Of a stretch of 36,456 nucleotides of DNA, positions 6,713 to 30,059 are shown in pieces. The notes beneath the pieces were generated by a model. It saw only the letters and a program-made list of their open reading frames with translations, was not told where the DNA came from and made no database searches. Both the position numbers and the translations under genes were made by a program. How positions within the stretch are numbered: position 1 is the stretch's first letter; every line of letters starts with the position of its first letter. The DNA is from a virus (Duplodnaviria > Caudoviricetes). The stretch is from IMG/VR virus record IMGVR_UViG_3300038314_000750, positions 1 through 36,456 of that record; one strand, given 5' to 3'.

Positions 6713-6724
6713 AATTGACCGCTA

Positions 6725-9700
6725 TTAGAACGCAGAATCAAAAGCGTTCTTATTTTTCTTTTGCTCTGAAGCATAAGGAACAACGTTATGTTGTTTAAGG
6801 TAATTTAACATAGCTTCAGCTTGATTTTCTTGTTCAAATTCTCGATTATCTTTTTCAGATTCAATATCAACAGACCTAACTGGCACACCACCAACGTATC
6901 TTGAAGCCCTCCATTGAAGAGGAATATCCTCATCTGAAACTCCCTTTAGAGTAGAAAAATATCTACCAATAAACGATTGAAGGAAGTGTAATCTTTTAGC
7001 ATCTATCTCGTATCTTTTAAGGAATACAATTTCCTCTGTATTAGACCAATCCCTATAAGAAACCTCTCTGTAGTTGAGATACTTCTTAATTGGACCAGGT
7101 AAAAACTTCAAAGCATCAGTTGTCTTCTTGGTCTGCATTTCTCTAGGAACTTCTGGGTTCCAAATATCTCCACCAAAATAGAAGTTTCTATTCATAAATC
7201 TTTCAATAGGATATTTAAGGAATGGAGTTAATGTTGAAGCAATTTCTCTAATACCATTTGAAGAGATAGGAAGCATGTTAATATCTTCTACTGGTAGGTC
7301 TAATTGAGCCCATAAACTACGACCCAAATCATCCTTTAGTTTAGTTGGGAATACTAACGATTCTTTCATCCAATCTGGTAAGCTCTTAAACTCTTCTTCG
7401 GCAGTAGCGTCAAAGAGAGATTTCCTTGTCTTTTCTAGTCCAGCATATTTTCCAGGTTGCTTCATCATTTGCTGAAGCTGAAGTGGGATGTTGTTTCTAG
7501 TCCAAGTATAGAAAGGTATCAATCTCTTCATTACATTTCTTTCAAATGGAGCTAATCCAGTTTCAGGAATGTAATCAAAGTGAAACTTAAAGGAATCCTT
7601 AGCTGCTTCAGCTGGGCTGTAACCCTTTTTGAGACGGTTAATAAATATTGGAAGTCGTAATCTATTCTCTACTTGTTCCATCATCCAACGAGGAGCATTA
7701 CTAGCACCAAGACCAGCTCTCTTGATTTTACTTTTAGTAATTAGGTCTACATGTTTATCAATCTGCCTAGCTACATCCATCATTCCAGGCTGGTCTTTTA
7801 CACCAAACCTTCCAGCTAAATCTAATACCTGTTGACCAGTGTACTTTGTTCCTATCTTTGTTCTTATTGCTATTTTCTTTTTTGTTTTTGGTTTTTTAGG
7901 GTCTTTTGATTTTAGGTATTTAACTTTCCCTACCCCCTTAGTTGCTTGGTTGTAGATGTCTGTTAGTTGGGATTTGGTTGGTCTTTTAGACAAGACTTCA
8001 TTAAACAAATCTTTAATTGGATTTATATTTTTGTTTATTTTTTTAGTATTCCATATTAAATACTCTCCTCCATTGTCCTTAAATCCATCAAATCCTTGTT
8101 CCTTTGCTTTTTTAACAAAACTACTTAACCCACCAGTTCCCTGTTTAATATCTTGCATCGCAGATGTATCAATGTCTTTTAGTTTTAATCCTTTAGTATC
8201 AACAGCTAAAATGTTATTACCAGTTCCTTTTCCTCTTCCCATTTTTCTATACATATCTGCAGTGCCAAAACTATCTGTAAAATGAACACCACTATTCCAG
8301 CCACTACCACCTTTAAAGCCTTCTTTAAGAATATTATCACCACTATTAGTGCCATGAAAAATTTTTCCCTTTATTAAATTAGTAAGAGCATCTTTTTCGG
8401 ATTCAGAAAACGCATAATCAGCTTTTATACCAATGTCTTTGAAAAATTTACTCTCTATATCACTCAATGGCTTACCTTGTGCCTTCACAAACTCCTCTGC
8501 ACTCTTATACTTCCTTGCTTCTTTGGCTAATGGTTGTGTTGGAAGTTCATCTGCTTCCTTTATAATCTTACCTATAATTGGGTCATCAACACCATGTAAA
8601 ATCTTCTCAGCATCCTTATAGTCAACCAGTTTAACTCCAGCTAACCAGTTATTAAAAAATCCACCAATAAAGTTTCTAGTGTGAAAGGCTGGAAACATTC
8701 CAGTAACATTAACCTTCCAAATATTTAATGCTTTATCGTAGGCTTTGAGTAATCCTCTGGTTGTCTCCTCATTAGAAAGAAACTTCATAGTATCTTCAAC
8801 ATGTTCAACAATCGGCTTTGGAAGCAACCAACCTTGTAGGTTGGGATTTGTTGATTCAACTAATTCAATTCCCTCATCCGTAAGCCTACTTGCGTTCTTG
8901 TCCATCCTAACACCAAACCTAGCTTTAGTTTGTTCTAAGAACTTATGAGTGTTAGCAAATTTAATATGCTCTACCTTTCTCATAGCCCAAGACTTGAACA
9001 GGTTCTCCTCAAAGAATTGCTCGACTCCGTGCTTCTCTTTCATGTACTTATTAACCTCTTCAATAGTAGCAGGTGTTGAGTCAACAATCTTTCCAGATTT
9101 GGTTGAGTAAGCAAACTCAGCCTTAATACCAGTCTCACCGTATTCTTTAATTTGTTTAAAAAGTGGCACTCCCTCTAAATTACTGAGAGCTTTAACTGTT
9201 TTAGGAAACGCCTTTGCAGCAAGTTCTGGGTTTCTCTGAATAACCCCAGCAGCATGAGCTAATAATTCGGTTGGCTTTCTATAATATACTTGCTTCTGAC
9301 TAGATAACGTCTTGAAATCAACAGGAATACTTTTAAGAATAGATTTCCATTCTTCTCTTGCTGCAGTTTTAGCTCCATCCAACAACTTACCAGCCTTAAC
9401 AAACCTACCTTGTTTGCTAAAGGTTTCTATCATATCTAACATTCCTGCTACATGCATCTGACCACCATGTGCCATTTCGTGTCTCAAGGTTTCTAATAAC
9501 CTAGGAAATGGTACTTTAGCAGCAACTACTAATTTCTTTTTAAATGGGTCTAAATAACCCCAAGCACTACCCCTTTTAACTGCTTCTTGTGCTTTAAATT
9601 CAAGACTAAATCCATATTCTTTTAATATCTTAGTAACATCATCAATGGATTTAAGCTCACCAATATCCATTTGCTTACTTAATCCCCTAGCAACCTCTAA

Positions 9701-10897
9701 CCTCCTTAATCCTAAAGTCTTCGCTGTCCCGATTATTGACTTACCAGTTTCATCAGTAAACTTTAAAAATTTCCTTTGTATTGATGGGTCTAATTTGGTT
9801 CTTAATGGCTTAGGAAGAGCAGCAAGAAAATTATCAGTTTTATCAATAAACTCTCTAGCCTCTGGAGTTAAGTAATGTCTTACGTAATTACTAACCTCAC
9901 CAATCTTCTTCCCAGTACCCTTCTCAATTTTAAGCATCTGGTCTCTATCTCTTTGATACGCCTTAATAACAGTATCCAGAAACTTATCTCCAGAGAAATC
10001 ACCCTTTTCAGTAATGTAGGATAATTTCTTACCAACATCCTTACCGTATCTTTTAACGGCTTCATCTGAAATCTTTTTAAGTTCATCGGTTTCTTTAAAT
10101 ATTTTAAATCTTGTTTCCCTTGAAAAGGGCTTATAAAGGAAATCAGTATAAAGTCCCTTACCGCCAACTCTAGCAGGTAGTTTGTCTATCTCTCTAAAGG
10201 GAACAAAAGCTCTAGCTACCCCACCACCAATCTTACCAGCCCTACCAGCTCCTGGAAGCATACCAAGAACCTTTCCAGCCTGTTTAAATCTTTGAGCAGG
10301 AATAAATACTTGTCCCATAAATTTGAGACCTTCTTTCCCAACGTACTTTTCGGCTGCTTTTTCTCCACCTTCTTGAATTAGCTTAGCCATCGCCCTTCTA
10401 GCTGCTGCATCTGAAGCACCCTTCTCTATCATTGTCTTCATTACTTTTCTTCCAGCCTTAGTGATACCCACCTGACCACCTTTTGTTGCTAGTTTCATAA
10501 CTCCAGCAGTTCCGAAGGTTACGTAAGTAATAGGGTCAAGTAAAATATCAATAGCTAAAGAAGCTGCATTTCTTTTAGAGAAGAACTTCCGTTCTTCTTC
10601 TCTATCTTTAAGAATAACCTCTGATGGGCTTATCTTTTCTCTAATCCCAGTAATTGGGCTCTTGCCAGAAAGAATACCACCTATAGCGTATTCACCAGTT
10701 CTTAGTACGTTCAAGGTTCCAGTAAGAACATTAAGAAATTTCTTTCCTAACAAAGACCATCCTTTTTCTTTTGGAACCTCATAACCAAGTTCCTCTACTG
10801 TTTGTAGATTAGTTGCTGCTGTTGTTTTTCTACCACCAAGACTATCAAAAGCATTTTGCCTAGCAGTAGAACCTGCTGAATCAAAAGCGTTAGCCAT
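6725..10897 (-). CDS. large internal virion/DNA ejection polyvalent protein with zincin (HEMAH) and ART-like domains
   Basis: 1390 aa, last gene of podovirus-like structural block; DILLDPITYV and FHTRNF/LIPFYTW segments typical of ejection proteins; LRHEMAH...PTELLA; FHGT...GVHFT...GFDG...EY. Confidence 0.75.
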   Translation of the reverse strand: MANAFDSAGSTARQNAFDSLGGRKTTAATNLQTVEELGYEVPKEKGWSLLGKKFLNVLTGTLNVLRTGEYAIGGILSGKSPITGIREKISPSEVILKDREEERKFFSKRNAASLAIDILLDPITYVTFGTAGVMKLATKGGQVGITKAGRKVMKTMIEKGASDAAARRAMAKLIQEGGEKAAEKYVGKEGLKFMGQVFIPAQRFKQAGKVLGMLPGAGRAGKIGGGVARAFVPFREIDKLPARVGGKGLYTDFLYKPFSRETRFKIFKETDELKKISDEAVKRYGKDVGKKLSYITEKGDFSGDKFLDTVIKAYQRDRDQMLKIEKGTGKKIGEVSNYVRHYLTPEAREFIDKTDNFLAALPKPLRTKLDPSIQRKFLKFTDETGKSIIGTAKTLGLRRLEVARGLSKQMDIGELKSIDDVTKILKEYGFSLEFKAQEAVKRGSAWGYLDPFKKKLVVAAKVPFPRLLETLRHEMAHGGQMHVAGMLDMIETFSKQGRFVKAGKLLDGAKTAAREEWKSILKSIPVDFKTLSSQKQVYYRKPTELLAHAAGVIQRNPELAAKAFPKTVKALSNLEGVPLFKQIKEYGETGIKAEFAYSTKSGKIVDSTPATIEEVNKYMKEKHGVEQFFEENLFKSWAMRKVEHIKFANTHKFLEQTKARFGVRMDKNASRLTDEGIELVESTNPNLQGWLLPKPIVEHVEDTMKFLSNEETTRGLLKAYDKALNIWKVNVTGMFPAFHTRNFIGGFFNNWLAGVKLVDYKDAEKILHGVDDPIIGKIIKEADELPTQPLAKEARKYKSAEEFVKAQGKPLSDIESKFFKDIGIKADYAFSESEKDALTNLIKGKIFHGTNSGDNILKEGFKGGSGWNSGVHFTDSFGTADMYRKMGRGKGTGNNILAVDTKGLKLKDIDTSAMQDIKQGTGGLSSFVKKAKEQGFDGFKDNGGEYLIWNTKKINKNINPIKDLFNEVLSKRPTKSQLTDIYNQATKGVGKVKYLKSKDPKKPKTKKKIAIRTKIGTKYTGQQVLDLAGRFGVKDQPGMMDVARQIDKHVDLITKSKIKRAGLGASNAPRWMMEQVENRLRLPIFINRLKKGYSPAEAAKDSFKFHFDYIPETGLAPFERNVMKRLIPFYTWTRNNIPLQLQQMMKQPGKYAGLEKTRKSLFDATAEEEFKSLPDWMKESLVFPTKLKDDLGRSLWAQLDLPVEDINMLPISSNGIREIASTLTPFLKYPIERFMNRNFYFGGDIWNPEVPREMQTKKTTDALKFLPGPIKKYLNYREVSYRDWSNTEEIVFLKRYEIDAKRLHFLQSFIGRYFSTLKGVSDEDIPLQWRASRYVGGVPVRSVDIESEKDNREFEQENQAEAMLNYLKQHNVVPYASEQKKNKNAFDSAF

Positions 10898-10898
10898 A

Positions 10899-12428
10899 TT
10901 AGTTAAACGTAGGACTTACTAATTCAGGTAAACCATCTCCTGGACTAAGGAAGAATTGTTTCCCAGCTTCTCGACCCCTTTTCTCTGCTGCTTCTTCAGC
11001 CAGTGCTTCTGGGGTTTCAGTTAATATTCTATCTGGGTCTAACCCACCATAAGGGTCAAAGGAAGTGGTAGATGGTTGTTGTGGAGATGGTGGTAATAAG
11101 TTCTGAGGAACTGGCTCATCAAATTGTTCAGCAGTAATTAATCTAGCTCTATCTTTATTTATTATATTTTGAGACAAGGTAACCTCATCTAAAACTTCTT
11201 GATAAGTTCTGTCTTGTCCTTGTAATCCTCTAATAACAGCTCTAAGTTCATCATCCTCGTAAACCCTTACATCTGGGTCATCTGGGTCTCTTCGAAGAGC
11301 CTTTACTGCTTGAGCATTAGTTAGAGCAATTCCAGCTCTTTCAGCTGCAAGTTGTAATTCTCTTTCCTCACTAGCTAGTGGAGCAACTAATTCAGCATAT
11401 TCTGCCTTTACTTCATCTAAGGTTTTACCAATAATGTTTATGTTTACACCAACTTGAGCAGCTTTAACCATCAATTCAGCCTTTTCATCTTCTTCTTTCT
11501 TCGTTTGTTCTAAAATGTCTCTTTGAACGTCTAGTGTGTTATTTAAGGCATTTTGAGCTTTGGTATCTAACTTATCTATAATGTCCTTATTAATATCAAA
11601 AAACGTTTGTAATTGGTCAAATTCAAATTGTTGGTCAGCCATAGCAGCAGTTACAGCATCCTTGGCAAGGCTTCGTGCTAAAGATATATTGCCCTGTAAG
11701 GCGGCTATAGTGGAGTTCTTAGCATTCAAAGTAGCAGCTACAGCGTTAATACGAGAATTGGCTTGACGTTCAATCCTTGCCTTTCTCCCAGTAACTTCAG
11801 AAATAGTTAGTCCTGGGATACCCTCTTGAGCCAGCATAGACTGGTCTCTTTGAGCAGTGAGAGTGTTTAATTGGTCTTGTAGTGGGATAGTATCCTGAAT
11901 AAGTGTATTTATCTGTGCTAGATTTGTTGGAATGCCAAGTTCTTTCTGTTGTTCTGTTAAAATGGCTGCCTGTGATTGTCTTTGGGTAAAGAAATCTTTT
12001 ATGCCAGTGACAACGCCTTTTTGTTCTTTGCGAGCTTCTTCTAGTTCTTTTTGTAACTGTTCAGTTTGTTGCTGAAAGAAATCAAACTGCCCCTGTAATC
12101 CCTTACTAGTGTCTAATGCCCCCACACCAGTATCTGCCAATTCTCCTGTGGGCATTTGTAATTCTGTCTGATTCAACATCTCTGGGGTAAGAACATCTGC
12201 TTCTCTTGGGTCATCTGGAAACAATCTCTCTGTTCCAGGAAGTCTTACGCCTAATTTTCTTGCTTCTTCTTGTCCAATGTCCTGAACAACGCTAAAAGCC
12301 TCTTCTGGAGTTTTTGCTCCAGTGAGTTCCATTAGATGTTTAGGGTCTCTAACGGGACCTCCCTCTGCCCCTATTTCAAAAACCTTTCCAGGAGTTTGGC
12401 TTGTTGGTATTCTAACAAATTTAGCCAT
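10899..12428 (-). CDS. putative internal virion (ejection) protein, coiled-coil
   Basis: 509 aa, Q/A/E-rich helical; position between tail genes and large ejection protein. Confidence 0.6.
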   Translation of the reverse strand: MAKFVRIPTSQTPGKVFEIGAEGGPVRDPKHLMELTGAKTPEEAFSVVQDIGQEEARKLGVRLPGTERLFPDDPREADVLTPEMLNQTELQMPTGELADTGVGALDTSKGLQGQFDFFQQQTEQLQKELEEARKEQKGVVTGIKDFFTQRQSQAAILTEQQKELGIPTNLAQINTLIQDTIPLQDQLNTLTAQRDQSMLAQEGIPGLTISEVTGRKARIERQANSRINAVAATLNAKNSTIAALQGNISLARSLAKDAVTAAMADQQFEFDQLQTFFDINKDIIDKLDTKAQNALNNTLDVQRDILEQTKKEEDEKAELMVKAAQVGVNINIIGKTLDEVKAEYAELVAPLASEERELQLAAERAGIALTNAQAVKALRRDPDDPDVRVYEDDELRAVIRGLQGQDRTYQEVLDEVTLSQNIINKDRARLITAEQFDEPVPQNLLPPSPQQPSTTSFDPYGGLDPDRILTETPEALAEEAAEKRGREAGKQFFLSPGDGLPELVSPTFN

Positions 12429-12433
12429 AATTA

Positions 12434-12922
12434 TTACCGCTTATATTCTTCTACGAAAATGTATTCCATTATTAACATAATTTCACCTGTGCCAGTTTTG
12501 CCTCCTGCTGAAGCAAAAACAACTGTATCACCTGTGCTTATATCTCTTTTAAGTAGAGTAAGTTTAGTAGAGTCCCATAAAGTTTGAGATACTAAAGAAG
12601 TGCCTGTAAAATAATAATCGTCATCATCTGTGGTGGAGTTCATCTTGCCTATCTTGATAGTTATACCCGCATCAGCTGATGTTTCTTCTGTATAAAGCAC
12701 ATAAACCCTAGTTATTTCTGCTGCCCGTTCTGTATGAAAAACTACCAAAGTTTCTGCCCCCCCAGATAAATCAACTGCTGTAGCTGTTCTTACTATTAAG
12801 GTAGGTCTATTTAATAAATCTTCAAACTTATTCTTTGGAGCATTAATCCCATTGTGAGGAGGATTCTTTTCTATAATTGGTGGTCTTATAGCTTTTTCTG
12901 TGATTGTTTCTATTTTAGTCAT
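12434..12922 (-). CDS. putative virion structural protein
   Basis: 162 aa beta-rich, within structural operon. Confidence 0.55.
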   Translation of the reverse strand: MTKIETITEKAIRPPIIEKNPPHNGINAPKNKFEDLLNRPTLIVRTATAVDLSGGAETLVVFHTERAAEITRVYVLYTEETSADAGITIKIGKMNSTTDDDDYYFTGTSLVSQTLWDSTKLTLLKRDISTGDTVVFASAGGKTGTGEIMLIMEYIFVEEYKR

Positions 12923-14628
12923 TATAATAAAGGTTCAGAGATTGTTTCATAAATTATGTCTAAATCGCTTAAAACTGGCTGCCCGCTTGTAGTTCTAATT
13001 TCTATTTTAATTAATAACTTTCTAAACTCTGGATGGTCTGGGCAGTCAATAAAAATATTATCTCCAGATGTTATATTTGTAACATCAATCTTAAACTTCT
13101 TAAATTTTTGAATGAATAAACGAGTCTCGGTTGGATTATTAACAGCCATATTACTATCTAATGTATATACATAAGGGTCGCCAGAAACATCTACCGATGT
13201 AATTCTTCTAATATATCCAGCATTGCTCCCATTTAATACCATAATTTCGTCTCCCTCAGCTCCTAATGGATTATCTCCACTATCTGTTGATGATTTATCT
13301 ATTGATACTTTATTTTTAACTGATTCATTTCCATCCTGCTGAGCGTACCCCCACAACAAGGTGTCAAACACATAATAACTTGCTAAAACATCTACATCAA
13401 ATTTTGATGTGTCTGCCCTTTGCCAAGGATTAATCTTAAACTTAACCCCTTTAAGAATACTTTTTTCATCAGAGATAATTGGCGAAATATAATATGCTGC
13501 TAATGTAGGAGCACTCCCTATGTTGAATTTATCTAAACTTCCCTTATTCCCAGTTGCATCCTGTTGTGAACCTATCAGAATTTGTCGCCTACTACCCAGA
13601 CGAGGAACAGATAATGCTTTTACCCCATAAGAAGTGCTACTAATATACCTCTCTTCAGAAGCTAATGGACTTACAAAATATCCAAAATTAGTTTTTAAAT
13701 CATAACACCATAAACCTGGCATCTTTCTATTAAAAGCACTATTATTGCTTCCAAAATAAATCTTACCACCTACCACTATTATAGTATTATCTTGAATTTG
13801 TGTGTTTACATCAGTATCTCCTGTATCTGGTGTTTCAAATAACAAAGTTGGGGGGTATGAAGTAATATCGTATAAATGACCATCTGAAAGAATGGCGAAT
13901 ATCCTATTATTATGATTTAACAATGACATTACTGCTTGATTAAACTGATAGATAGCACTTGGTTCGTCTGAAACAACATCCCACTCAAACACAGCACCAA
14001 TATTATTTCTATTAGCTGCTATAAGAGCTTTACGATAATCATATCCAGCTTGTGTAATAGATTTAATAACATAACCAGGTGGTAAGGTTAGAGCACTTGC
14101 TGTGAACGACCCCGCCCCGCCTCCACTTGTATCAATTCTCGCTACGATATTTCCATCGCCCCACAAAACATAAGCTTGAACTAAAGCTGCTGGGTGATAA
14201 ACTCCTGCATCTCCATTTGTAAAAGAATAAGATGGGTCTGTCCAAACCCTTGGGGCAGCAGCTGTCCAATATTTTAAAGCTGCATCTGAAACAACCCAGA
14301 TAGAATCATTTTGGTCAGCTATCATATTATTACTAAACCCAGAATTATTACCTAATGCTACCCAATCTGATCCTCCAGTCGCAGAACTAAAAATATATGC
14401 ATTATCACATAAAACGAACGCCTTTGTTTCTGTTCTTCCATAAGTAAAATTAACAGGAGTAGTAAAATTAGCAAGAGTTCCTTCTATTTCTGAATTAGTA
14501 ATTTTAGCTATTGCTCCTAATCCCTTTCCGCCATCAACTGGAATCATATTAACAGAATGATAAAATCCACCAATTACTGGTCGGTCATGTATTCCTCTAA
14601 AATCTCTAATTTGTAATTTTTTAAGCAT
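12922..14628 (-). CDS. tail tubular/nozzle (head-closure) beta-propeller-like protein
   Basis: 568 aa, IRDFRG N-terminus, repeated beta-strand/W-D patterns, syntenic with P22 gp10 / T7 gp12 position. Confidence 0.6.
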   Translation of the reverse strand: MLKKLQIRDFRGIHDRPVIGGFYHSVNMIPVDGGKGLGAIAKITNSEIEGTLANFTTPVNFTYGRTETKAFVLCDNAYIFSSATGGSDWVALGNNSGFSNNMIADQNDSIWVVSDAALKYWTAAAPRVWTDPSYSFTNGDAGVYHPAALVQAYVLWGDGNIVARIDTSGGGAGSFTASALTLPPGYVIKSITQAGYDYRKALIAANRNNIGAVFEWDVVSDEPSAIYQFNQAVMSLLNHNNRIFAILSDGHLYDITSYPPTLLFETPDTGDTDVNTQIQDNTIIVVGGKIYFGSNNSAFNRKMPGLWCYDLKTNFGYFVSPLASEERYISSTSYGVKALSVPRLGSRRQILIGSQQDATGNKGSLDKFNIGSAPTLAAYYISPIISDEKSILKGVKFKINPWQRADTSKFDVDVLASYYVFDTLLWGYAQQDGNESVKNKVSIDKSSTDSGDNPLGAEGDEIMVLNGSNAGYIRRITSVDVSGDPYVYTLDSNMAVNNPTETRLFIQKFKKFKIDVTNITSGDNIFIDCPDHPEFRKLLIKIEIRTTSGQPVLSDLDIIYETISEPLL

Positions 14629-14629
14629 A

Positions 14630-15947: not shown

Positions 15948-15956
15948 ATTAGTCAC

Positions 15957-19164: not shown

Positions 19165-19176
19165 AAATACCGCTAT

Positions 19177-20100: not shown

Positions 20101-21156
20101 TTATTTATCCGCTACCCTGTGATACACATTTGCCCATTTGTGAGCATGTTTTTTAAAATTTGAATGCTTAATAGTCCATTCGTAAGCATTTTGAGCCATT
20201 ATCTTACGCTGTTTTTCGTTTTCGATTAAATAACTTATTTTATCAAACCATTCCTTTTTATTTTCTTTAGCCACTAATCCCGTTACTCCGTCTTTAACTG
20301 ACTTATAAAGAAATTTAGAATATACTCCTGCTATCTTATTTAAACTATATTCCCCATATTTGCATTGTGATTTACATTTAGCAAATGGTTCTTCAACTAC
20401 TGGTGCTATAGCTATGTCCCCTCGCAATGAAGACAATTTAGACGGCCATACTTCCATTGGAGCGCCTAAACTAAATTCATACTGGTCTTGTGGCAAATCT
20501 TTGAACAAACTTTCTCCATAATTATATTGAACCCACTTGTCTGGAGAGTTAGTTCCACCAAACCCGCAACAAACGAACTTAACATTTTTATATTTATTTA
20601 AAATCTTTTTAATAACTGGGGCTATAAATTGTAAATCTAATTTATGGGAATTGCCCCCCGCCCATAAAAGCCTAATCTTATCTGAAGTATTTGGCTTATG
20701 CGGTTTAAGCCAAAATGATATATCAAAATAGTTTGGGAGAACAGTGATGTCATCGTTAAACCACTTATATCTATTTTTAATTACCTCTGTGGTTGTAGTG
20801 ATAGCATCCGACTTCCACAAACACCAGTAGGTTAAAAATGTTCTCCACCAATTCATTTCCTTATAAGCATAGTGAGTTTTAGGGACTCGTTCCATCATAT
20901 CATCAAGCTCATAAACTATCTTTGCCCCTGCTTTATGGCAGGCGTTAATAAAGGTGGGCGAATAGACCATTTCTACTACAACTATATCTGCCCATTGGAG
21001 AAGCCCATCTGGTATCCCGCCAGTTTCCCCCGACTTCAGTCCCCTGATTTTAATATCATGTCCGAGAGAAGCCATATAGTAAGCCTGTGGAATAATACGG
21101 TATAAACGACTGCCTGTAGAATTATGGATAAAGATGATATGTAATTTATTTTTCAT
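20101..21156 (-). CDS. GT-B fold (GT4-like) glycosyltransferase
   Basis: LYRIIP, IVYELDD, DAITTTT, VLPN, WAGGNSH, DIAIAP...F..CKSQCKYGEY. Confidence 0.85.
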   Translation of the reverse strand: MKNKLHIIFIHNSTGSRLYRIIPQAYYMASLGHDIKIRGLKSGETGGIPDGLLQWADIVVVEMVYSPTFINACHKAGAKIVYELDDMMERVPKTHYAYKEMNWWRTFLTYWCLWKSDAITTTTEVIKNRYKWFNDDITVLPNYFDISFWLKPHKPNTSDKIRLLWAGGNSHKLDLQFIAPVIKKILNKYKNVKFVCCGFGGTNSPDKWVQYNYGESLFKDLPQDQYEFSLGAPMEVWPSKLSSLRGDIAIAPVVEEPFAKCKSQCKYGEYSLNKIAGVYSKFLYKSVKDGVTGLVAKENKKEWFDKISYLIENEKQRKIMAQNAYEWTIKHSNFKKHAHKWANVYHRVADK

Positions 21157-22266: not shown

Positions 22267-22495
22267 AAATATTGTTTTAATGACTCTTTATAAATCTTTT
22301 CGTTAATCTTAGAAATGGTTTTTTGTTTATGCTCCTTATGAAAACCAGCTGCTTCTTTAACTCTTTTAAAACTACAGCCGATACTATCCATTCTTAACAT
22401 CATTTCGTAATCATCTGCCCCGTATCCGACCATTTCTTTAGAAACTTCTTAATACATTCTTCTCTGATTGTTGGAACCACCACGATAGCTTTCAT
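22263..22495 (-). pseudogene. out-of-frame fusion of two glycosyltransferase-related gene ends (deletion scar)
   Basis: Frame A MKAIVVVPTIREECIKKFLKKW (GT-A/RGP-like start, stop at 22400); frame B SKEMVGYGADDYEMMLRM...GFHKEH...QYL (GT2 C-terminal GxGxxD motif); both ends ATGA-coupled to neighbours. Confidence 0.7.
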
Positions 22496-23124
22496 GTTTT
22501 TACAAACCTCACTAAAAACCAATTTGGAGGGAGTGGTCTTTTATTTAATACATCATACGGAATAATAATTGGAGATGCGGTCTTGCTATCATCAAAAATG
22601 CCCTTTGAAATCTCTTTGAATTCTATTGGTGTCCATTCCTGAATATGTTCTTCTGACATTAATGTATCTCCTATCTTCCATGGTGTTGTGAGGAGTAGGA
22701 CTCCTTTTCTCTTTAAAACTCTTTTCATCTCTAGCAACAATTCTTTCGGTTTCTCAACGTGCTCAACAATCTCTTGGACAGAAATAACATCAAATGTATT
22801 ATCCTCAAACGGTAGATGAAAAGCATCAGCGACCATATAATCTATGTTCTTAGCTAAAGTCTTTGCTTTCTTGATGGCGAACTTAGAATAATCTATACCA
22901 ACGACATCCAATGCGGGATTTCTAGCTTTAATATACCGACAAAAGTTTCCTAATCCGCACCCAACATCTAACAAACTGCCCCTAGTGGGTATATGAGTAC
23001 CCATCGTATCAAATCTTAATCCGTCCCACCTATAACCCATAGCCCCATTGATATGTTCTGACTTCATTAACTTCCATTCCTTCTTAAATTGCTTATCCCA
23101 GAACTTAGGATTGTTTAGGTTCAT
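22492..23124 (-). CDS. class I SAM-dependent methyltransferase
   Basis: LLDVGCGLG, GIDYS, LPFEDNTFD, EIVEHV, EMKRVLK. Confidence 0.9.
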   Translation of the reverse strand: MNLNNPKFWDKQFKKEWKLMKSEHINGAMGYRWDGLRFDTMGTHIPTRGSLLDVGCGLGNFCRYIKARNPALDVVGIDYSKFAIKKAKTLAKNIDYMVADAFHLPFEDNTFDVISVQEIVEHVEKPKELLLEMKRVLKRKGVLLLTTPWKIGDTLMSEEHIQEWTPIEFKEISKGIFDDSKTASPIIIPYDVLNKRPLPPNWFLVRFVKT

Positions 23125-24619
23125 ATTTAGTAGTCTTTAGTTTCTCCTTTTTGGCTTCGTATTCTGGATGAGCTTTCGCTTGAAACGATGTGAAATCCAT
23201 GTGTTCTACAATTACGTTTTCAAGATATGCAAGTATGTATTGGTATTTAATAGCATATTGGCTAAATGTATAATCCTGGTCTCCGTGTAAAAAGTCGTCC
23301 TCTTCCCATCTGAAGTGCTTGTAAATAAAGGCTGGAGCCGCACAACATATTCCTCCGATGTGAGGAGCCAACCCTAAAAAGTGTTCTCCTACATAAGCAT
23401 ACTGTGTTCTTGGAACTCCACCTGGAGTATCTCGTAATCCTTCAACTCTTGGCGACACAACAAACTGTCTTTGTTTTTCATATAAATCAACTATATCTTT
23501 AAGCCAGTCTTTTGTTAAAAACAAACAATCGTTGTCTGCTTTTATAATTACATCATAGCCCTCACCAATTATGTCCAATAATTCATTGGAAGCCTTTGAG
23601 ATACCTACATTCTCATCATCACCAATCATTTCTTTTACTTCAGCATTCTTTAATATCCAATGGCGAGTTCCATCAGTAGAACCATTATCATATACAAACC
23701 AATCAAACTTATGTCCAGCGTTCTTCTTCATTGATTCATACATGCGTTTTGTGTAATCAAGTCGGTTCATTGTTAGGGTGAATATGGCTACCTTTAACTT
23801 TGGTCGTTCGCCATATAAAGTCTTGTCTGGAAATATCTTACAATCATCTGGACTAAAGTCAGGGAGATTCTTCCCAGTAATAGGATGCTTCTTATCTTGT
23901 TTCTTAAATTGATTACACCCTGGATGAACATAGTAATCGGTAATAATAATTGGCACATGTTGAAATCTATATCCAGCTTTTGTCATTCTGACCCATAAAT
24001 TCCAATCAGCATACTTTACTAATGCCTCGTCCCAACCACCAACTGCCTCAATACAAGCCTTACGAATAAGCACGTCTGAAGTATCAATGTAGTTTTCCTG
24101 AGTTAATAGTGCAGCATTAAAATCACTTGAATTGCCCTTCATTGGCTTGAACTTACCACTATCATCTACTATCCATCTATCTCCATAAACTACATCATTT
24201 TTTCCTAAATATTTATAAAGAACTTGTAAATGATCTCTACGATACTCATTATCATCATCAAGGTATGCTACCAAATCCGCTGTCGCAGCTTGCGTGCCTT
24301 CGTTCTTAGGGCGTGGATGCTGCCCAAAGTTAGAGCTACGCCTAATATACCTAATCCTATTATCTTTACGAACCATCTTTTCACAATACTTTTGGGTTTT
24401 GTCTGTTGAATAATCATCTACAATGATGAGTTCCCAATCAGTAAATGTCTGATTAAGAACTGATTTAACTGCTTTTTTTAAACGACTAACACGATTATAA
24501 GTCGTTGTTATCACACTAATCGCTGGGTCACTTGTCGAAGTAGTTATCATAAATTTAGTGCTAAAGCGGCAGTTATAAGGATTAACGCAGCGGAAAACGT
24601 CTTTCCCTATAGCCGCCAC
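23105..24619 (-). CDS. tandem GT2 glycosyltransferase (two GT-A domains); start may be ATG 24550
   Basis: ISVITTTYNR, IIVDDYSTD, YLDDD; second domain YDNGSTDG, KADND. Confidence 0.9.
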   Translation of the reverse strand: MAAIGKDVFRCVNPYNCRFSTKFMITTSTSDPAISVITTTYNRVSRLKKAVKSVLNQTFTDWELIIVDDYSTDKTQKYCEKMVRKDNRIRYIRRSSNFGQHPRPKNEGTQAATADLVAYLDDDNEYRRDHLQVLYKYLGKNDVVYGDRWIVDDSGKFKPMKGNSSDFNAALLTQENYIDTSDVLIRKACIEAVGGWDEALVKYADWNLWVRMTKAGYRFQHVPIIITDYYVHPGCNQFKKQDKKHPITGKNLPDFSPDDCKIFPDKTLYGERPKLKVAIFTLTMNRLDYTKRMYESMKKNAGHKFDWFVYDNGSTDGTRHWILKNAEVKEMIGDDENVGISKASNELLDIIGEGYDVIIKADNDCLFLTKDWLKDIVDLYEKQRQFVVSPRVEGLRDTPGGVPRTQYAYVGEHFLGLAPHIGGICCAAPAFIYKHFRWEEDDFLHGDQDYTFSQYAIKYQYILAYLENVIVEHMDFTSFQAKAHPEYEAKKEKLKTTKYEPKQS

Positions 24620-24626
24620 CTTAACA
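24559..24626 (-). ncRNA. long G-U rich RNA hairpin (22-bp stem) with loop complementary to AGCGGAAAA
   Basis: UGUUAAGGUGGCGGCUAUAGGG pairs with CCUUAUAACUGCCGCUUUAGCA with one mismatch and several G-U pairs. Confidence 0.6.
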
Positions 24627-24630
24627 TCCG

Positions 24631-25023
24631 CTATGTTTTAAATCCTTTTTGTTGCATTTTTTCTAACATCTCTTTATTTTTAGGACTTGTAAAATGCTTT
24701 ACAAATTGTCTTGATGTAATGATTTTCCTACCCAATAGTGTTAATCCAATGCCAGTAAGAGAACGATGCTGTGTTCCGTCTTTTGTTTCATATCCTTGGT
24801 CTCCACGCTTATCGTTTATGTTTGACCAGCCCTTAGCCCCCTTACAACCCTTGGGGATAGATATTAAACGCTTATTGCCTAAATATAAAACCTCTATCTC
24901 TTGATTAAGCTCTGTGTATTCTTCACCAGTCTTTTCGTCAAGGAAACGTGTATTGATTTTCTCTATATGTAATCTTCTATCAAATTGTTGCAACCATTTC
25001 TCAAATGTCTTTTGAATTATCAT
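24631..25023 (-). CDS. hypothetical protein (130 aa)
   Basis: ORF track; directly downstream of capsid gene. Confidence 0.7.
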   Translation of the reverse strand: MIIQKTFEKWLQQFDRRLHIEKINTRFLDEKTGEEYTELNQEIEVLYLGNKRLISIPKGCKGAKGWSNINDKRGDQGYETKDGTQHRSLTGIGLTLLGRKIITSRQFVKHFTSPKNKEMLEKMQQKGFKT

Positions 25024-25029
25024 AATAAT

Positions 25030-25075
25030 TGTTCCCTCAGGGAGCTTCTATGTGTTCAAAGCTCCCCTAGGAACG
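25030..25075 (-). other. stem-loop downstream of major capsid gene (terminator/processing site)
   Basis: GTTCC..GGGAGCTT / AAGCTCCC..GGAAC inverted repeat; no clear U-tract. Confidence 0.5.
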
Positions 25076-25113
25076 TTTGCTAATTGCCTTTATCACAATA
25101 GCAAACTCAAAAC

Positions 25114-26076
25114 TTAGTCTCCGAGTACTGCACCACTCTCAACACGAATCATACGACTGCTATTCAACTCTCTCGTAGCAAAAGCCATCTTGAATCCAAC
25201 AGTTCCATACAAATCTAATGTTGAAACTGGAGATGGATTCTTAATAATGGTTTTGATGTCTTCGAATTCTGAAACTCCGTAGTGTTCTGGACCAAAGATA
25301 TAAGACTGGTAAACATCAGTGTTAGCCGAACCAGAAGCAACCATCTTTAGAGCTTGCTGACTCAGAATAAACTCAACACCGAATAATCGACCAACTACAC
25401 CCTTGCCCATTCCACTACTTGCAGCATTGCCAAATGTTCGCATATCACCCATACCACTCTCTGTGTGTTTGAGGATTTCCTGCCAGTTAGCTGTGTCGCC
25501 CTGTAAATCATACTTAACGTCCTGATTAATAATACCCCGATAAAAACCATCTGGGTATGGTTGTGCTTTAAGAGTTTCAAGACTATTAAGAGATTCACGA
25601 ACTTCAGCTATGTCCATATCAAATGTACCATCTGTGGCAATAGAGTTGCGAGCAACCGCGGTCCCGCCATACTGAGCTGAACCACCTGCTGTGAAGTTAC
25701 TGTCACGAATAACAGTATCAATCTCTAATGCAGCTGCACGGGCTAATCGTTCCATCACTTCTACCATTGACTGAGGAACCCAAGTGCCTTGTAAGATGTC
25801 AGAAATTTTAACGGTCTGACCATACTGAGCTAAAGCTGCGGTAAGGTCACCTGCTGACAAATTGGTCTCATCTGGGTCTGTCCCTTCGGTAAGGGCTGGA
25901 CTTGCTGAAAAATCAGCAATAGACAACCAATGGACTAATTCACCCTGGTTCCTTGGGTGGGTGCTCTTTAACCCCCAACCAGCAAATACTGTGTTTGCGC
26001 GAAGTTCATTCAAGAATACTTTATTATAATATTCTTCAATAAGTTCTGCCTCTGTAGATATTGTAACTGTAGCCAT
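25114..26076 (-). CDS. major capsid protein (HK97 fold, N4-gp56/P22-coat-like)
   Basis: 320 aa; LTEG, QYG..VKISD, AAALEIDTVIRD, DVKYDLQGD..W, GRLFGVEF, YGTVGFK; follows scaffold. Confidence 0.9.
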   Translation of the reverse strand: MATVTISTEAELIEEYYNKVFLNELRANTVFAGWGLKSTHPRNQGELVHWLSIADFSASPALTEGTDPDETNLSAGDLTAALAQYGQTVKISDILQGTWVPQSMVEVMERLARAAALEIDTVIRDSNFTAGGSAQYGGTAVARNSIATDGTFDMDIAEVRESLNSLETLKAQPYPDGFYRGIINQDVKYDLQGDTANWQEILKHTESGMGDMRTFGNAASSGMGKGVVGRLFGVEFILSQQALKMVASGSANTDVYQSYIFGPEHYGVSEFEDIKTIIKNPSPVSTLDLYGTVGFKMAFATRELNSSRMIRVESGAVLGD

Positions 26077-26087
26077 CTAAATTCCGC

Positions 26088-26675
26088 TTACTTTTGCGAA
26101 ATTGGACGATTCCAAGAAGGTAATGCCTCAACCATTTTCTTAGCATCCTCTATAGGCATGCTACGAATCTGCTCTTTGGTTATACCCTTTTCCCCTTCTG
26201 GTAATCTACCGCCCTCAACAAATTCAGGACTTGCTGGTTTCTGCAATTTTTGTTCCTGTTGAACCATTTTCTCAAAAGCAGAATCCTTATAAGCCTCACT
26301 CATAGAGACACCTTTTTGCTTAGCAATAGCCTGAACATCGTCAGAATATCCCTTAGCGTCTGGGTGTTCCATGCCAAATTCCATTTTAGCGATTTTGTCG
26401 CTGGTCGCTACATTAGCATCTTGATTCTTCTCTTCAGAAGATTTAGCTGCTTCTATTTTGTCAAACTCTGCCGCTTTTGGACCAAGCTCTCCAATATAAG
26501 AAGTTTGCTCTTTCATCCCCTTCCGAGCTTCCTCTATGCTTTTGTATTCACGACTCATCAACGTATTGATTTCCTCAAGGGTAAGATTATCGCCCTGTGG
26601 CGTAACATTTTCACCACCTTCTCCAGGGGTAACGTCTGCCCCTTGAGGGTCGGTTATTGAAGGTTTGTTTACCAT
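26088..26675 (-). CDS. capsid scaffolding protein
   Basis: acidic, helical, between portal and capsid. Confidence 0.7.
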   Translation of the reverse strand: MVNKPSITDPQGADVTPGEGGENVTPQGDNLTLEEINTLMSREYKSIEEARKGMKEQTSYIGELGPKAAEFDKIEAAKSSEEKNQDANVATSDKIAKMEFGMEHPDAKGYSDDVQAIAKQKGVSMSEAYKDSAFEKMVQQEQKLQKPASPEFVEGGRLPEGEKGITKEQIRSMPIEDAKKMVEALPSWNRPISQK

Positions 26676-26711
26676 AAAATTTCACTTCATTATCCGCTGT
26701 AGCCTTCCAGG

Positions 26712-26933
26712 CTAGGTCGACCTATCCGCTGTGGTTCCAGTGGGCAAAGCATCTGCTGCCCCTTCCACTGTTCTAATAATTTGGCTCTTAAACTCCTGAA
26801 CCCCCTTAGCTTCTGGTAATCTTTGTTTAGGAATACCCCAACCGTAATACTTCTCTGCTGTATCGTTTAAGAGTTTTTTAATAATTTTCCAAGTTTCCGT
26901 ATTAGCTGCTTGTGCTAATTTTTTATTATCCAT
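26712..26933 (-). CDS. small head-module protein (73 aa)
   Basis: TAATG-coupled to portal; typical position. Confidence 0.7.
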   Translation of the reverse strand: MDNKKLAQAANTETWKIIKKLLNDTAEKYYGWGIPKQRLPEAKGVQEFKSQIIRTVEGAADALPTGTTADRST

Positions 26934-28777
26934 TATTGTTGTGTTGCCGCAGCAACTGGAACACCCTTAGTTTTGGGGCTTAATGTTCCTTCTAAATTTC
27001 CTCTTTGAAACTCCGACATAGCTGTAGGTTCTCGACCTGCAACCTGTGTCGCTGCAGGAGCTTTTTGTCCGTTTGTAAATCTTGAACCACTTAATCCCAT
27101 AATCTCAGCAACTTCTCTTCCAAGGGCTTCGCCATCCATTCCTGGGAGCTGAGCTTGAATTAAATCAATTAAGTTTCTGGCCATAACTGCCTTATCAAAC
27201 TTCTCATCAGTAATCTCTATGTCTACATCATAATCTACATCAAAGAATTCTTTTAAAATCTGTATATCCCTATCCTTACCAAGTTTATTTAATCGCCCTC
27301 TAAATGCTGTCTTAAACATCTCCGCCTCTTCATCTGTCGGGACTCTGCCTGTTTCCACTATTCTATTAAGAACCTCATTATGATAAGCGTTGGTCAACAT
27401 AATGTCGTCAATCATCAAAAGGTCTTCAGCTTCACCAGTAATACGCAGTATCTCACCCTGCTTCAAAGAATCTATTATTAGTGGGATAACATGTCTTTTC
27501 AGGAATCGCTTTAAGAATAAACCTATGTTCTCTTGTGTGAGAGCAAACGCAGACCTTGAACCTCTATCCTTAAGGACTGCTGTAGTTGCTGGCAGCGAAG
27601 GAGCTATGGTTTCTACATCATGAGTCCCAGTTACCCTTTCCGCCATGCCTATAATTTCAGCTGGTTCCTGATATGCTGAAGCCTTGACATCCCCTTCAAC
27701 TAATGTCTGGATGTCTTCCATATTATCTACTGGGATAGCCCCACCTGATTTAATTGATTCCAGCATCTGACGTGTAATGCCCACGCCCTTACGATATTTA
27801 AACTTACCAGTTAGCTTATTCATCAATTCATCCCTACGAATATTGACCACTGTATTTAACCAAGTCTGAAGCCCTTTAATCATCTCAGCAGGAGGTCGTC
27901 CATGCCATCTGTTGGGGACTCTTTTATACCAACACTCTTCAAAAGGCTTAAATGCTCCTTTGTCCAGCTTAATTTTATGAATTATCTTTATCTGGTCTGC
28001 TAGCTGTCCTGTGCTGGAAGACACATTATCTGTCGACTCTTTAGGTTGGGCTGAAGCTATGATGGTGCCAGGAAGCCAGGTCTCTTCATCTGCCTTGTCT
28101 TTTGTTACCAAGCTCTTAGGAATAAGCCCCCACCTCTCATAAATATTCGCTGTGGGAACTGAACCCGTGCTGTATTGAATAAACTCCTTATTGTCCCAGG
28201 GCATTCTTGCCACCTCATCCTTGGTCATTGATGCTTTTTGTAGGATAGGAACATCGTGTAAAGAATGAGCTGATGGGTCTATAACCAGATTCAAAGGGTC
28301 AACGATGCTTAATCTTGGGAGATTACGCTTATACTCCTTAGACCACACTCTAACTGCTTTGGCAATTCCTGTGCCGTCTATAGTTAAACTACGGGTAAAT
28401 TCATTCAAAAATTCACCAAATCCTATTATTTTTAAAAAGTGTAAAGTAACCAACCGAACCAACTGAGCTATTCTGGAATCTTTACCTGGAGGGTTTTTAA
28501 TGGTTACATCTTTGGTGTCTAAATCTATATTCTTAACAATCGTTTCTATCGTCCATTCGGTTAATGGAATCCATAACTTATCAAGTCCTGTATCATCATC
28601 TACTGAATTTTCATAAACTCCGTAATAATTCTTACGATTGCTGTCAATCTCACCCCGCATAGAGAAGGTGACATCGTCTGATACTACAATGTTAATATTC
28701 TCCCACGCTTGTTTTTCGCGTTGGATAAGCCCTATAGCCAATTTGTCTTCTTTGGTCGGGTCATAATTCTCTGTCAT
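26933..28777 (-). CDS. portal protein (P22-like)
   Basis: 614 aa after TerL; DGTGIAK, VDPLNLVIDP, PNRWHGR, LQTWLN, TATT-like ATT segment. Confidence 0.85.
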   Translation of the reverse strand: MTENYDPTKEDKLAIGLIQREKQAWENINIVVSDDVTFSMRGEIDSNRKNYYGVYENSVDDDTGLDKLWIPLTEWTIETIVKNIDLDTKDVTIKNPPGKDSRIAQLVRLVTLHFLKIIGFGEFLNEFTRSLTIDGTGIAKAVRVWSKEYKRNLPRLSIVDPLNLVIDPSAHSLHDVPILQKASMTKDEVARMPWDNKEFIQYSTGSVPTANIYERWGLIPKSLVTKDKADEETWLPGTIIASAQPKESTDNVSSSTGQLADQIKIIHKIKLDKGAFKPFEECWYKRVPNRWHGRPPAEMIKGLQTWLNTVVNIRRDELMNKLTGKFKYRKGVGITRQMLESIKSGGAIPVDNMEDIQTLVEGDVKASAYQEPAEIIGMAERVTGTHDVETIAPSLPATTAVLKDRGSRSAFALTQENIGLFLKRFLKRHVIPLIIDSLKQGEILRITGEAEDLLMIDDIMLTNAYHNEVLNRIVETGRVPTDEEAEMFKTAFRGRLNKLGKDRDIQILKEFFDVDYDVDIEITDEKFDKAVMARNLIDLIQAQLPGMDGEALGREVAEIMGLSGSRFTNGQKAPAATQVAGREPTAMSEFQRGNLEGTLSPKTKGVPVAAATQQ

Positions 28778-28787
28778 TTATTTTCCG

Positions 28788-30059
28788 CTAATATTTAGGA
28801 TGCTTAAAAATCATTGCTTCCTCATTCTTTTTATTGGGGTTCTCGCTAAGTTGCCATACTGCTAAAGCTAATGAATTGACACAATCATCATGCAATCCTT
28901 CTGGAGCAGAATATCGTATATTCCCGCTATCTGTCCGCTTATAACCAAAGGCTTCAAGTTCATCAATCAGAACCTCGATTGGCGGGATATTAAACCTTTT
29001 CTGCTCTATAAATATTGAAAGTTTTTCAATTAACTGGGTCTTGGACTTATTTGTATATTTAAAGTCGTCTACTGCCAAACCCATCCTTCTAAGGTCGTCC
29101 GTGATAGGGTCACCTACTCCTGTAGAATCAATCGTAATCCTTGCTCCGTTATATTTCTTAGCAGTTTCGTAAATCCTTGCTTTCTGTAAATTCCAATCTA
29201 TATCCTTGAATCTGTCAAAATGAACTAACTGATGGTTTCTACGGTTAATTACCGAAAGAACTGTAAAGTCCTGGTATTTTCCCAAATCTACACCCATTAC
29301 ATAAAAGTTGCTCTTTTCTGGGTTTTTAACCTCTCCTGATACAATTTCTTTAACTCCTCGGAATACGGCTGCCGCGTCTCTTAAAAAGGCTGCTTCATAC
29401 TCCTGATTAAAAACGTCCATAGGGAGCCGTTTCTTTTCTCGTTCCCACTCGTCTATAGGAAAATAGGGGTTATTTTTGCTTGTAAAATGAAATGAAACCC
29501 CGTCCTCTGCGTCCTTATTCTGGATGTGCTGCTGATAAAACCAGTTCTGTCCAAACGGAGTGCTTATAAAGAGAGCTGACCCCTTTCTACTTGTAAGACG
29601 TTGGGAGATATACGAATTATAGACCTCTCCCTTCATTCTGGAACATTCGTCCATAATCACCAAATCCAACTCTTCTCCTAACAGCCCTGTGGGAAATTCG
29701 GCTGACTTACACTCAACCCAGCTCTGAAACCTCACATGACGCACTGAGAGCTTCCCTGCGGCACGTTGTATCTTAATTCTGCCCCTTTTAAGGTCTTCTG
29801 GAAAACCATTGCCTAAAAAGGTGTTTAAGTGTTCAAAGACCTTTTTGCTTAAATCATAGGTTGGACTTACTATCCAAATGTGAGTTCCTGGATTAAAGAG
29901 CTTCTTAAGAGCTAAATAAGCACATAACTGAGATTTACCAAACCTTGTTCCTGCACATATTACGGTAAAACGTTTAATTCCTGTAAGAATCTCTTTTTGG
30001 GGATTATGGGGTGTCCATCTTATTCTTTCTTGTAGTTCTATCTCTTTATTTGAAAACAT
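28788..30059 (-). CDS. terL: terminase large subunit
   Basis: Walker A AGTRFGKS, Walker B LVIMDE, ISTP, QEYEAAF, nuclease GVDLG, IDSTGVG, HDDCV. Confidence 0.95.
   Translation of the reverse strand: MFSNKEIELQERIRWTPHNPQKEILTGIKRFTVICAGTRFGKSQLCAYLALKKLFNPGTHIWIVSPTYDLSKKVFEHLNTFLGNGFPEDLKRGRIKIQRAAGKLSVRHVRFQSWVECKSAEFPTGLLGEELDLVIMDECSRMKGEVYNSYISQRLTSRKGSALFISTPFGQNWFYQQHIQNKDAEDGVSFHFTSKNNPYFPIDEWEREKKRLPMDVFNQEYEAAFLRDAAAVFRGVKEIVSGEVKNPEKSNFYVMGVDLGKYQDFTVLSVINRRNHQLVHFDRFKDIDWNLQKARIYETAKKYNGARITIDSTGVGDPITDDLRRMGLAVDDFKYTNKSKTQLIEKLSIFIEQKRFNIPPIEVLIDELEAFGYKRTDSGNIRYSAPEGLHDDCVNSLALAVWQLSENPNKKNEEAMIFKHPKY

What the first reader, a model, noticed from the sequence alone, without database searches (positions are those of the whole stretch)
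6719..28789. Late genes use an AGCGG motif in place of a Shine-Dalgarno sequence
On the minus strand AGCGG(A/T) lies 5-9 nt before the start of portal (28785-28789, 7 nt), capsid (26084-26088, 7 nt), the GT2 GTG (24628-24632, 8 nt), adaptor (20109-20113, 9 nt), fibre (19170-19174, 5 nt), the 509-aa ejection protein (12437-12441, 8 nt) and holin (6719-6723, 6 nt). It is 18 nt before the scaffold start (26694-26698). None of these has GGAGG, while early and accessory genes do, so the host anti-SD is probably canonical. A GC-rich pentamer at a fixed position in an AT-rich genome is unlikely by chance. Inference: a late-specific translation initiation or reinitiation signal, an RNA-binding-protein site, or a late promoter element.
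Basis: seen in the sequence. Interest (0 to 1): 0.8.

Follow-up and report, generated by a model that had tools for sequence, protein, structure and literature searches.

The report
Phage hairpin with private ribosome-binding code
In this uncultured phage many virion genes carry AGCGG where a ribosome-binding signal normally sits, a single conserved RNA hairpin in the same genome displays the exact complement in its loop, and the two change together in related phages, so the hairpin likely acts as the phage's own substitute for the ribosome's anti-Shine-Dalgarno tail (untested; it could instead repress those genes).

Summary
AGCGG precedes 7 of 23 late starts and 0 of 23 other starts; GGAGG shows the reverse (0 of 23, 7 of 23). 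Between the 130-aa gene after the capsid gene and the GT2 gene lies a ~75-nt RNA hairpin (24557-24629, minus strand; 17 of 24 pairs compensatory) whose 8-nt loop UUUCCGCU is complementary to the motif. Among relatives, loop and motif change together: AGUGG/CCACU, AGCGA/UCGCU, GGCGU/ACGCC, AGGGC/GCCCU. All 17 hairpins also have a complementary site beside their stem base. The motif lies 5-9 nt before the start in 31 of 39 sites and serves GUG/UUG starts. It is not a host 16S-tail match in the genomes searched. Best reading (about 50%): a trans-acting surrogate anti-SD that gives late mRNAs a private initiation code. Main rival (about 25%): C4-like antisense repression. No Rfam family or paper was found. 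Against: three hairpin-bearing relatives show no or at most one dispersed site, one conserved site has no start nearby, no ribosome-docking partner is known, the host is unknown, and the RNA itself has not been observed.

The parts
24557..24629 (-). Guide hairpin RNA: basal helix, long helix with G-U pairs, small internal loop, 5-bp apical stem, 8-nt loop. One copy per genome.
   Evidence: MFE -37.3 kcal/mol, z -6.2 on the minus strand vs -17.8, z -0.6 on the plus strand; 17 of 24 pairs compensatory in 11 sequences; one sense hit per locus
24589..24596 (-). Apical loop UUUCCGCU, complementary to AGCGG(AAA); the guide
   Evidence: covaries with the RBS motif
24628..24632 (-). Self-site AGCGG at the 5' base of the hairpin; overlaps the stop of the 130-aa gene; 8 nt before an in-frame GTG in the stem and, across the stem, close to the GT2 ATG at 24550
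   Evidence: a 5-8 nt complementary site flanks the stem in 17 of 17 hairpins
28785..28789 (-). Target site before portal (7 nt); AGCGGAAA matches all 8 loop bases
   Evidence: duplex -12.3 kcal/mol with the loop, -3.5 with a canonical 16S tail
26694..26698 (-). Target site before scaffold (18 nt here; 6-7 nt in L008, L092, L098, L112)
26726..26730 (-). Extra conserved AGCGG directly 5' of the AGGTCG box, with no start codon at SD distance (unexplained)
   Evidence: also in L091, L007, L097
26718..26723 (-). AGGTCG box, conserved before the scaffold gene regardless of code; role unknown
   Evidence: a (G/A)GTCG box in 12 of 12 close relatives shown
26084..26088 (-). Target site before the major capsid gene (7 nt)
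20109..20113 (-). Target site before the SU10-type adaptor (9 nt), inside the upstream coding sequence
19170..19174 (-). Target site before the 623-aa putative fibre gene (5 nt)
12437..12441 (-). Target site before the 509-aa putative ejection protein (8 nt)
6719..6723 (-). Target site before the 65-aa putative holin (6 nt)
24631..25023 (-). 130-aa gene always just upstream of the hairpin; predicted alpha-beta-beta-beta-alpha order; possible but unproven RNA-binding partner
   Evidence: no clear fold match; weak dsRBD/HicA rows at Z <= 2.7; homologues also occur without the hairpin
23105..24550 (-). GT2 glycosyltransferase gene directly downstream of the hairpin

Best explanation
AGCGG is the binding site for the loop of a phage-encoded hairpin RNA (sequence complementarity and co-change are shown), and that loop likely pairs in trans with late mRNAs and serves as a substitute anti-Shine-Dalgarno sequence that would position ribosomes on virion genes. 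Shown: motif enrichment and position, the conserved strand-specific hairpin, loop-motif complementarity, and matched changes in four further lineages. Inferred: the hairpin survives as a stable piece of the late transcript and acts in trans, because sites lie up to 18 kb away and the self-site cannot reach the loop across an intact 25-30 bp stem; it docks on the 30S subunit through its conserved G-U-rich helix, alone or with a protein; and accumulation gives positive feedback and preferential translation of late genes.
For: Loop and RBS motif match in each lineage and not across lineages (L098 AGTGG 4 of 11 starts, AGCGG 0; L092 AGCGA 2 of 5; L094 1 of 3; L102 AGGGC 2 of 12; G304 GGCGT 3 of 28; AGCGG-loop phages 8 of 24, 4 of 14, 3 of 7, 4 of 13). 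The own-loop assignment is the best of 120 permutations, and the capsid RBS matches its own loop by 5-8 nt in 12 of 14 phages. AGUGG, AGCGA and GGCGU lineages nest among AGCGG phages in a quick capsid tree. 31 of 39 sites lie 5-9 nt before a start in a 0-25 nt search window, the spacing expected of an SD (knowledge). 6 of those 31 starts are GUG/UUG, including the capsid gene in L002 and L093, and L140's only in-frame GT2 start is a UUG 7 nt after the self-site; such starts usually need SD-type help (knowledge). Loop-site duplexes are -8.4 to -12.3 kcal/mol vs -2.9 to -4.5 with a 16S tail. A 5-7 bp pairing with fixed distance to the start codon suits a pairing held inside an initiation complex (inference). 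Relative L011, which lacks this hairpin family, uses AGGAG (6 of 20 starts).
Against: No docking site or partner on the ribosome is identified; the 130-aa protein has no clear fold match and occurs without the hairpin. G303 (1 of 30 starts), L003 (0 of 7) and L099 (0 of 2) keep the hairpin and self-site but hardly any dispersed site and no SD, so late genes can do without the motif. Most portal relatives at 25-38% identity have few or no SD motifs and no hairpin. Only 8 of 24 called late genes of the window have the site. The conserved site at 26726-26730 has no start nearby, and scaffold sites are 14-20 nt away in four phages. In L056 and L011 a different hairpin has a CCUCC loop facing canonical SDs, which is easier to read as occlusion. 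No transcript of the hairpin was seen.
Confidence: 0.5

Rival explanations
1. The hairpin is a short-seed antisense repressor, like the C4 RNA of P1/P7: its loop pairs with the initiation regions of SD-less late genes and blocks 30S loading, as feedback control or superinfection exclusion with phage-specific codes.
For: It explains the same covariation. C4 is a ~77-nt phage RNA whose loops pair with targets, partly occluding ribosome-binding sites, with specificity set by a few loop bases (PMC5320573, passages). Late genes without any motif exist in G303 and L003. CCUCC-loop hairpins face canonical SDs in L056 and L011.
Against: Occlusion does not need a 5-9 nt window, yet 31 of 39 sites keep it, including non-orthologous genes. 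A single 5-7 bp contact is weak for a free repressor (inference). GUG/UUG starts sit behind the motif. No conserved promoter was seen that would make the RNA outside the late transcript (and inspection).
Confidence: 0.25
2. The hairpin guides a nuclease, or acts as a ribozyme, to cut late mRNA at each site, producing short-leader transcripts and releasing the hairpin itself.
For: A site abuts the stem base in 17 of 17 hairpins, like an exon-binding arrangement. The neighbouring protein has weak HicA/dsRBD-like rows. It would tolerate the 14-20 nt scaffold spacing and the start-less site.
Against: No Rfam ribozyme match. The protein occurs without the hairpin. The tight spacing to start codons is not required by this model.
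Confidence: 0.1
3. The loop captures the non-template DNA strand at a -10-like position and so acts as an RNA-guided late promoter that makes leaderless mRNAs.
For: The spacing also fits a -10 box; non-late genes have sigma70-like boxes 6-8 nt before ATG.
Against: UUG starts and 9-20 nt spacings fit leaderless translation poorly (knowledge). A start site downstream of the self-site would remove the basal helix, which shows compensatory changes. 5-6 bp is little specificity on DNA.
Confidence: 0.06
4. The core role is head-to-tail oligomerisation of the hairpin (self-site to loop), as in a packaging-RNA ring, and the RBS copies are secondary feedback sites.
For: The self-site is universal (17 of 17) while dispersed sites are not; the element lies in the head module.
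Against: It lacks the multi-way junction of phi29 pRNA (recalled), and in L102 the self-site is itself at RBS position before GT2.
Confidence: 0.05
5. AGCGG pairs with host rRNA (a variant 16S tail, or the 5' strand of helix 45) or is a protein-binding site, and the hairpin match is incidental.
For: The helix-45 3' strand in the sampled genomes often reads (U/A/G)GCGGAU, close to the motif.
Against: 0 of 301 genomes have a CCGCU tail and 68 of 68 readable tails are CCUCC; the pattern AGCGGW..ATG shows no clear excess over its reversed control in those genomes, by inspection; five codes each track the phage's own loop. The host phylum is a guess.
Confidence: 0.04

Closest known systems
C4 antisense RNA of phages P1/P7 (PMC5320573, passages read); CI RNA of P4 (recalled)
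   Same: Small phage RNA cut from a longer transcript, acting through short loop sequences on initiation regions; specificity changes by matched substitutions.
   Different: One long unbranched hairpin with one loop, not three stem-loops with a' and b'; at least eight sites across the late operon at SD spacing on genes that lack an SD; encoded in the head module; no Rfam C4 hit.
3' cap-independent translation enhancers of Tombusviridae, e.g. the PLPV TED (PMC4820102, abstract and outline seen)
   Same: One structured element whose loop kisses short complements near several start regions and promotes translation; this is what the best model works like.
   Different: Bacterial DNA phage, probably acting in trans over up to 18 kb, with fixed 5-9 nt spacing; no bound factor known.
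Phage-encoded bS21 (PMC9723584, passages)
   Same: A phage late-module component proposed to bias initiation toward late phage mRNAs at the anti-SD region.
   Different: That is a protein substitution; here the specificity is RNA base pairing. No bS21 hit among 49 window proteins, though the window is a fragment.
Engineered orthogonal ribosome/mRNA pairs (recalled; listings)
   Same: An altered anti-SD reads an altered SD at normal spacing.
   Different: The altered anti-SD here is on a separate phage RNA, not on 16S rRNA, and is natural.

Membership tests
C4 antisense RNA (Rfam) | Match to the family covariance model | tested here: not met
   No C4 hit at E<=10 over 24400-25200; no gathering-level hit at the hairpin in 8 sources
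C4 antisense RNA (Rfam) | Three stem-loops with two targeting loops | tested here: not met
   Single unbranched hairpin, one loop
C4 antisense RNA (Rfam) | Loop complementary to target initiation regions, changing in step with them | tested here: met
C4 antisense RNA (Rfam) | Represses target expression; processed by RNase P | not testable with these tools
   needs experiments
Canonical Shine-Dalgarno signal | Complementary to the 16S 3' tail | tested here: not met
   -2.9 to -4.5 kcal/mol with a CCUCC tail; no CCGCU tail in 301 genomes of the guessed host phylum; true host unknown
Canonical Shine-Dalgarno signal | 5-9 nt upstream of the start codon | tested here: met
   31 of 39 sites
3' CITE-type translation enhancer | Loop pairs with short complements near several starts | tested here: met
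3' CITE-type translation enhancer | Binds an initiation factor or ribosomal subunit and raises translation | not testable with these tools
   no partner identified
3' CITE-type translation enhancer | Located in the 3' UTR of a plant RNA virus | tested here: not met
   dsDNA tailed-phage genes: terminase, portal, capsid
Sigma70 -10 box for leaderless mRNA | TANNNT consensus | tested here: not met
   Motif is (T/A/C)AGCGG and varies with the RNA loop
HicA / dsRBD fold (130-aa neighbour) | Significant structural match | tested here: inconclusive
   pLDDT 76; no Foldseek hit at E<=0.001; VIA-align best Z 3.6, HicA and dsRBD rows at Z 2.0-2.7

The most novel reading that the evidence does not exclude
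A natural orthogonal translation system: the phage makes a small RNA that docks on host 30S subunits as a replaceable anti-Shine-Dalgarno, so virion genes are read through a private code that drifts from phage to phage.
Probability: 0.4. Interest if true: 0.97.

Novelty: categorically new. Interest (0 to 1): 0.86.

Why it matters
If the activating reading holds, ribosome recruitment in bacteria can be reprogrammed by a 75-nt RNA without changing rRNA. That would be a new way for a phage to favour its own late mRNAs and a compact tool for orthogonal expression. If it represses instead, it is still an operon-wide, single-loop RNA regulator with a co-evolving code that replaces the SD position. 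Five natural loop/site pairs give ready-made swap controls, so the sign can be settled with a simple reporter.

Tried and rejected
Host tail match: none in 301 genomes of the guessed phylum (positive control). My recollection that AAAGGTCG is a host ribosome-binding motif: not supported (most of 20 fetched matches are not gene starts). Helix-45 pairing: rejected because the invariant first A pairs only with the phage loop. Stop-codon readthrough or a conserved peptide through the hairpin: in-frame stops in most relatives (inspection). Intramolecular pseudoknot of self-site and loop: sterically excluded by a 0-2 nt linker across 25-30 bp (inference). Hairpin in host genomes: 3 of 150 with weak hits at E 0.002-0.005, not followed up. 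Hairpin in 77 more distant loci: none. Fold of the 130-aa protein: nothing clear. RNA evidence: one run at 0.06 word share gave three short contigs over scaffold and capsid and none over the hairpin; contigs cannot show ends or absence. Host search with the portal profile: 1 of 401 genomes, distant; the 91-kb record behind L272 is a phage, not a provirus. Literature: ten searches found no description of this system; most subscription papers are not in the library. In PMC10690425 (ten thousand candidate viral RNAs) three supplement files gave no match to the loop sequence or record ids, and six files could not be searched, so the RNA may be among its candidates. The careful tree did not finish; one search is the quick tree.
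Full report
Setting. The window is a 36.5-kb, 36.8% GC fragment of a tailed phage. Family scans of 49 proteins give terminase, an SU10-type portal, a major capsid protein, an SU10 adaptor, glycosyl- and methyltransferases. No cultured phage is close: the best capsid matches in the phage collection are under 30% identical in the rows shown. The host is unknown. Weak hints point to the candidate phyla radiation: a 35%-identical capsid in the bin 'bacterium ADurb.Bin212' (its placement in Patescibacteria is recalled, NCBI lists it unclassified), and a 44%-identical portal labelled candidate division CPR3. Both could be mis-binned phage contigs.

Observation. All eight sites are where stated. AGCGG lies 3-12 nt before 7 of 23 late starts and 0 of 23 other starts; GGAGG gives 0 and 7, AGGAG 1 and 10. 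Corrected P is 6e-9, and no GC-rich pentamer exceeded 4 genes in 20000 shuffles. Before the capsid start, close relatives carry AGCGG or variants, while many distant ones carry ordinary SD motifs and others carry neither.

The partner. The 'GT2' site is the 5' flank of a structured RNA between the 130-aa gene and GT2. It folds as one long hairpin with an 8-nt loop, UUUCCGCU (24596-24589), at -37.3 kcal/mol, z -6.2; the opposite strand gives -17.8, z -0.6. In 11 aligned copies, 17 of 24 pairs show double changes (three of the 14 first aligned aligned poorly or were shorter and were left out). A model built from them finds one sense copy per locus and, at E<0.001, only the close clade among 100 sources, and nothing in 77 further loci. 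Rfam has no family for it.

Loop and motif move together. Loops with CCGCU go with AGCGG sites (window 8 of 24 called late genes, L091 4 of 14, L007 3 of 7, L002 4 of 13, L008 1 of 12, L097 1 of 6, L093 1 of 3, L096 1 of 2). L098 has loop CCACU and AGUGG at 4 of 11 starts with no AGCGG. L092 and L094 have UCGCU and AGCGA (2 of 5, 1 of 3). L102 has GCCCU and AGGGC (2 of 12). G304 has ACGCC and GGCGU (3 of 28). Off-diagonal counts are 0-2. Misses: G303 1 of 30, L003 0 of 7, L099 0 of 2. The capsid RBS matches its own loop by 5-8 nt in 12 of 14 phages. With one representative per code, the true assignment is the best of 120 permutations; I chose the representative site for L102 after seeing it. 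In a quick capsid tree the AGUGG, AGCGA and GGCGU lineages fall in different places among AGCGG phages and L102 lies outside, so the changes look independent. All 17 hairpins have a 5-8 nt complementary site beside the stem, 16 on the 5' side and L102 on the 3' side. In a scan of other intergenic hairpins such flanking matches were uncommon.

Not the host rRNA. No CCGCU tail was found in 301 genomes of the guessed phylum; 68 had a readable tail and all are CCUCC. The eight sites pair with the loop at -8.4 to -12.3 kcal/mol and with a canonical tail at -2.9 to -4.5; ten SD-led non-late genes pair with the tail at -6.0 to -21.6. PMC9297842 (passages) reports the anti-SD in only 48% of Parcubacteria, so a host without one is possible, but the window's non-late genes use SDs.

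How it likely works. 31 of 39 motif sites with a start within 25 nt lie at 5-9 nt (where two starts were listed I took the homologue-supported one). Six of the 31 starts are GUG or UUG, and in L140 the only in-frame GT2 start is a UUG 7 nt after the self-site. One GUG start without motif or SD was seen (L002 terminase). A short pairing at a fixed distance from the start codon is the signature of a contact held within the initiation complex. The self-site cannot reach the loop across an intact stem, and other sites are 1.5-18 kb away, so pairing is probably between molecules. I therefore favour a surrogate anti-SD: the stable hairpin accumulates from the late transcript, binds 30S subunits, and recruits late mRNAs. 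Docking, stability, trans action and the positive sign are all inferred. C4-like repression explains the covariation equally well and is the main rival. It gains from G303 and L003, whose late genes have neither motif nor SD, from the many SD-poor portal relatives, and from CCUCC-loop hairpins facing ordinary SDs in L056 and L011. It explains the spacing and the non-AUG starts less well. Guided cleavage, an RNA-guided promoter and a packaging-RNA ring are weaker rivals.

Protein partner. The 130-aa gene is always upstream of the hairpin, but profile hits also occur in many relatives without it. Its model (pLDDT 76) has no clear fold match; dsRBD and HicA rows appear only at Z 2.0-2.7. It is a candidate, not a shown partner.

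Comparison and novelty. By anatomy it is nearest to C4 antisense RNA (PMC5320573, passages) and, in the favoured reading, works like plant-virus 3' CITEs (PMC4820102, abstract and outline). Its proposed purpose parallels phage bS21 (PMC9723584, passages). It fails the membership tests for all three. Ten literature searches found no description, with the limits given under Tried and rejected. Five look-ups in earlier scan findings showed nothing on this genome or family.

Verdict. The motif is real and is one half of an RNA-RNA recognition system whose other half is encoded in the window. The pairing is well supported by covariation; the sign of the effect is open.

Noticed in passing
window 26718-26730 (minus); scaffold leaders of L091, L007, L002, L008, L097, L098, L092, L112, G303, G304, L003: A code-independent (A)AAGGTCG-like box 15-40 nt before the scaffold start in 12 of 12 close relatives, repeated before three other genes in G304; possibly a late promoter or protein site. 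Not a host-wide RBS in the genomes sampled.
   Followed up: partly
L056:1164-1255; L011:8006-8062; L010:9009-9098; L129:5099-5176; L134:4367-4434; L017:7996-8070; L101:2020-2056: Distant relatives carry other head-module hairpins whose loops match a nearby or RBS-proximal site: CCUCCC/GGGAGG, UGAGGUCAG/CUGACCUCA, CCGUCU/AGACGGA before portal, CUUGUC/GACAAG, UCCUCUGC/GCAGAGGA. They may be analogues or ancestors; the covariance model does not detect them.
   Followed up: partly
L008:6359-6591; L102:172-399: Group I intron matches in or next to the capsid gene; in L008 the capsid gene is interrupted and holds further open frames.
   Followed up: no
window 33939-33902, ~1190-1147, ~4510-4495 (minus): Sigma70-like boxes ending 6-8 nt before ATG, suggesting leaderless transcripts for some non-late genes.
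   Followed up: no
L232-L289: Most portal relatives at 25-38% identity have almost no SD motifs (commonly 0-3 of up to 36 genes), pointing to hosts that do not use SD pairing.
   Followed up: partly
window 25030-25105 (minus): GC-rich hairpins without a U-tract follow the capsid gene in the window and most close relatives.
   Followed up: no
window 30874-31238: A palindromic stretch bounded by TTGACA on both strands lies between the divergent early and late blocks; possible operator.
   Followed up: no
L099:1430-1460; L003:6310-6340: The apical region of these hairpins resembles the 16S end read (GUAUCCC...ACCUC); may be chance.
   Followed up: no
G303 after 7170; L093 after 1722: An extra open frame, possibly a homing endonuclease, sits between the hairpin and GT2.
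   Followed up: no
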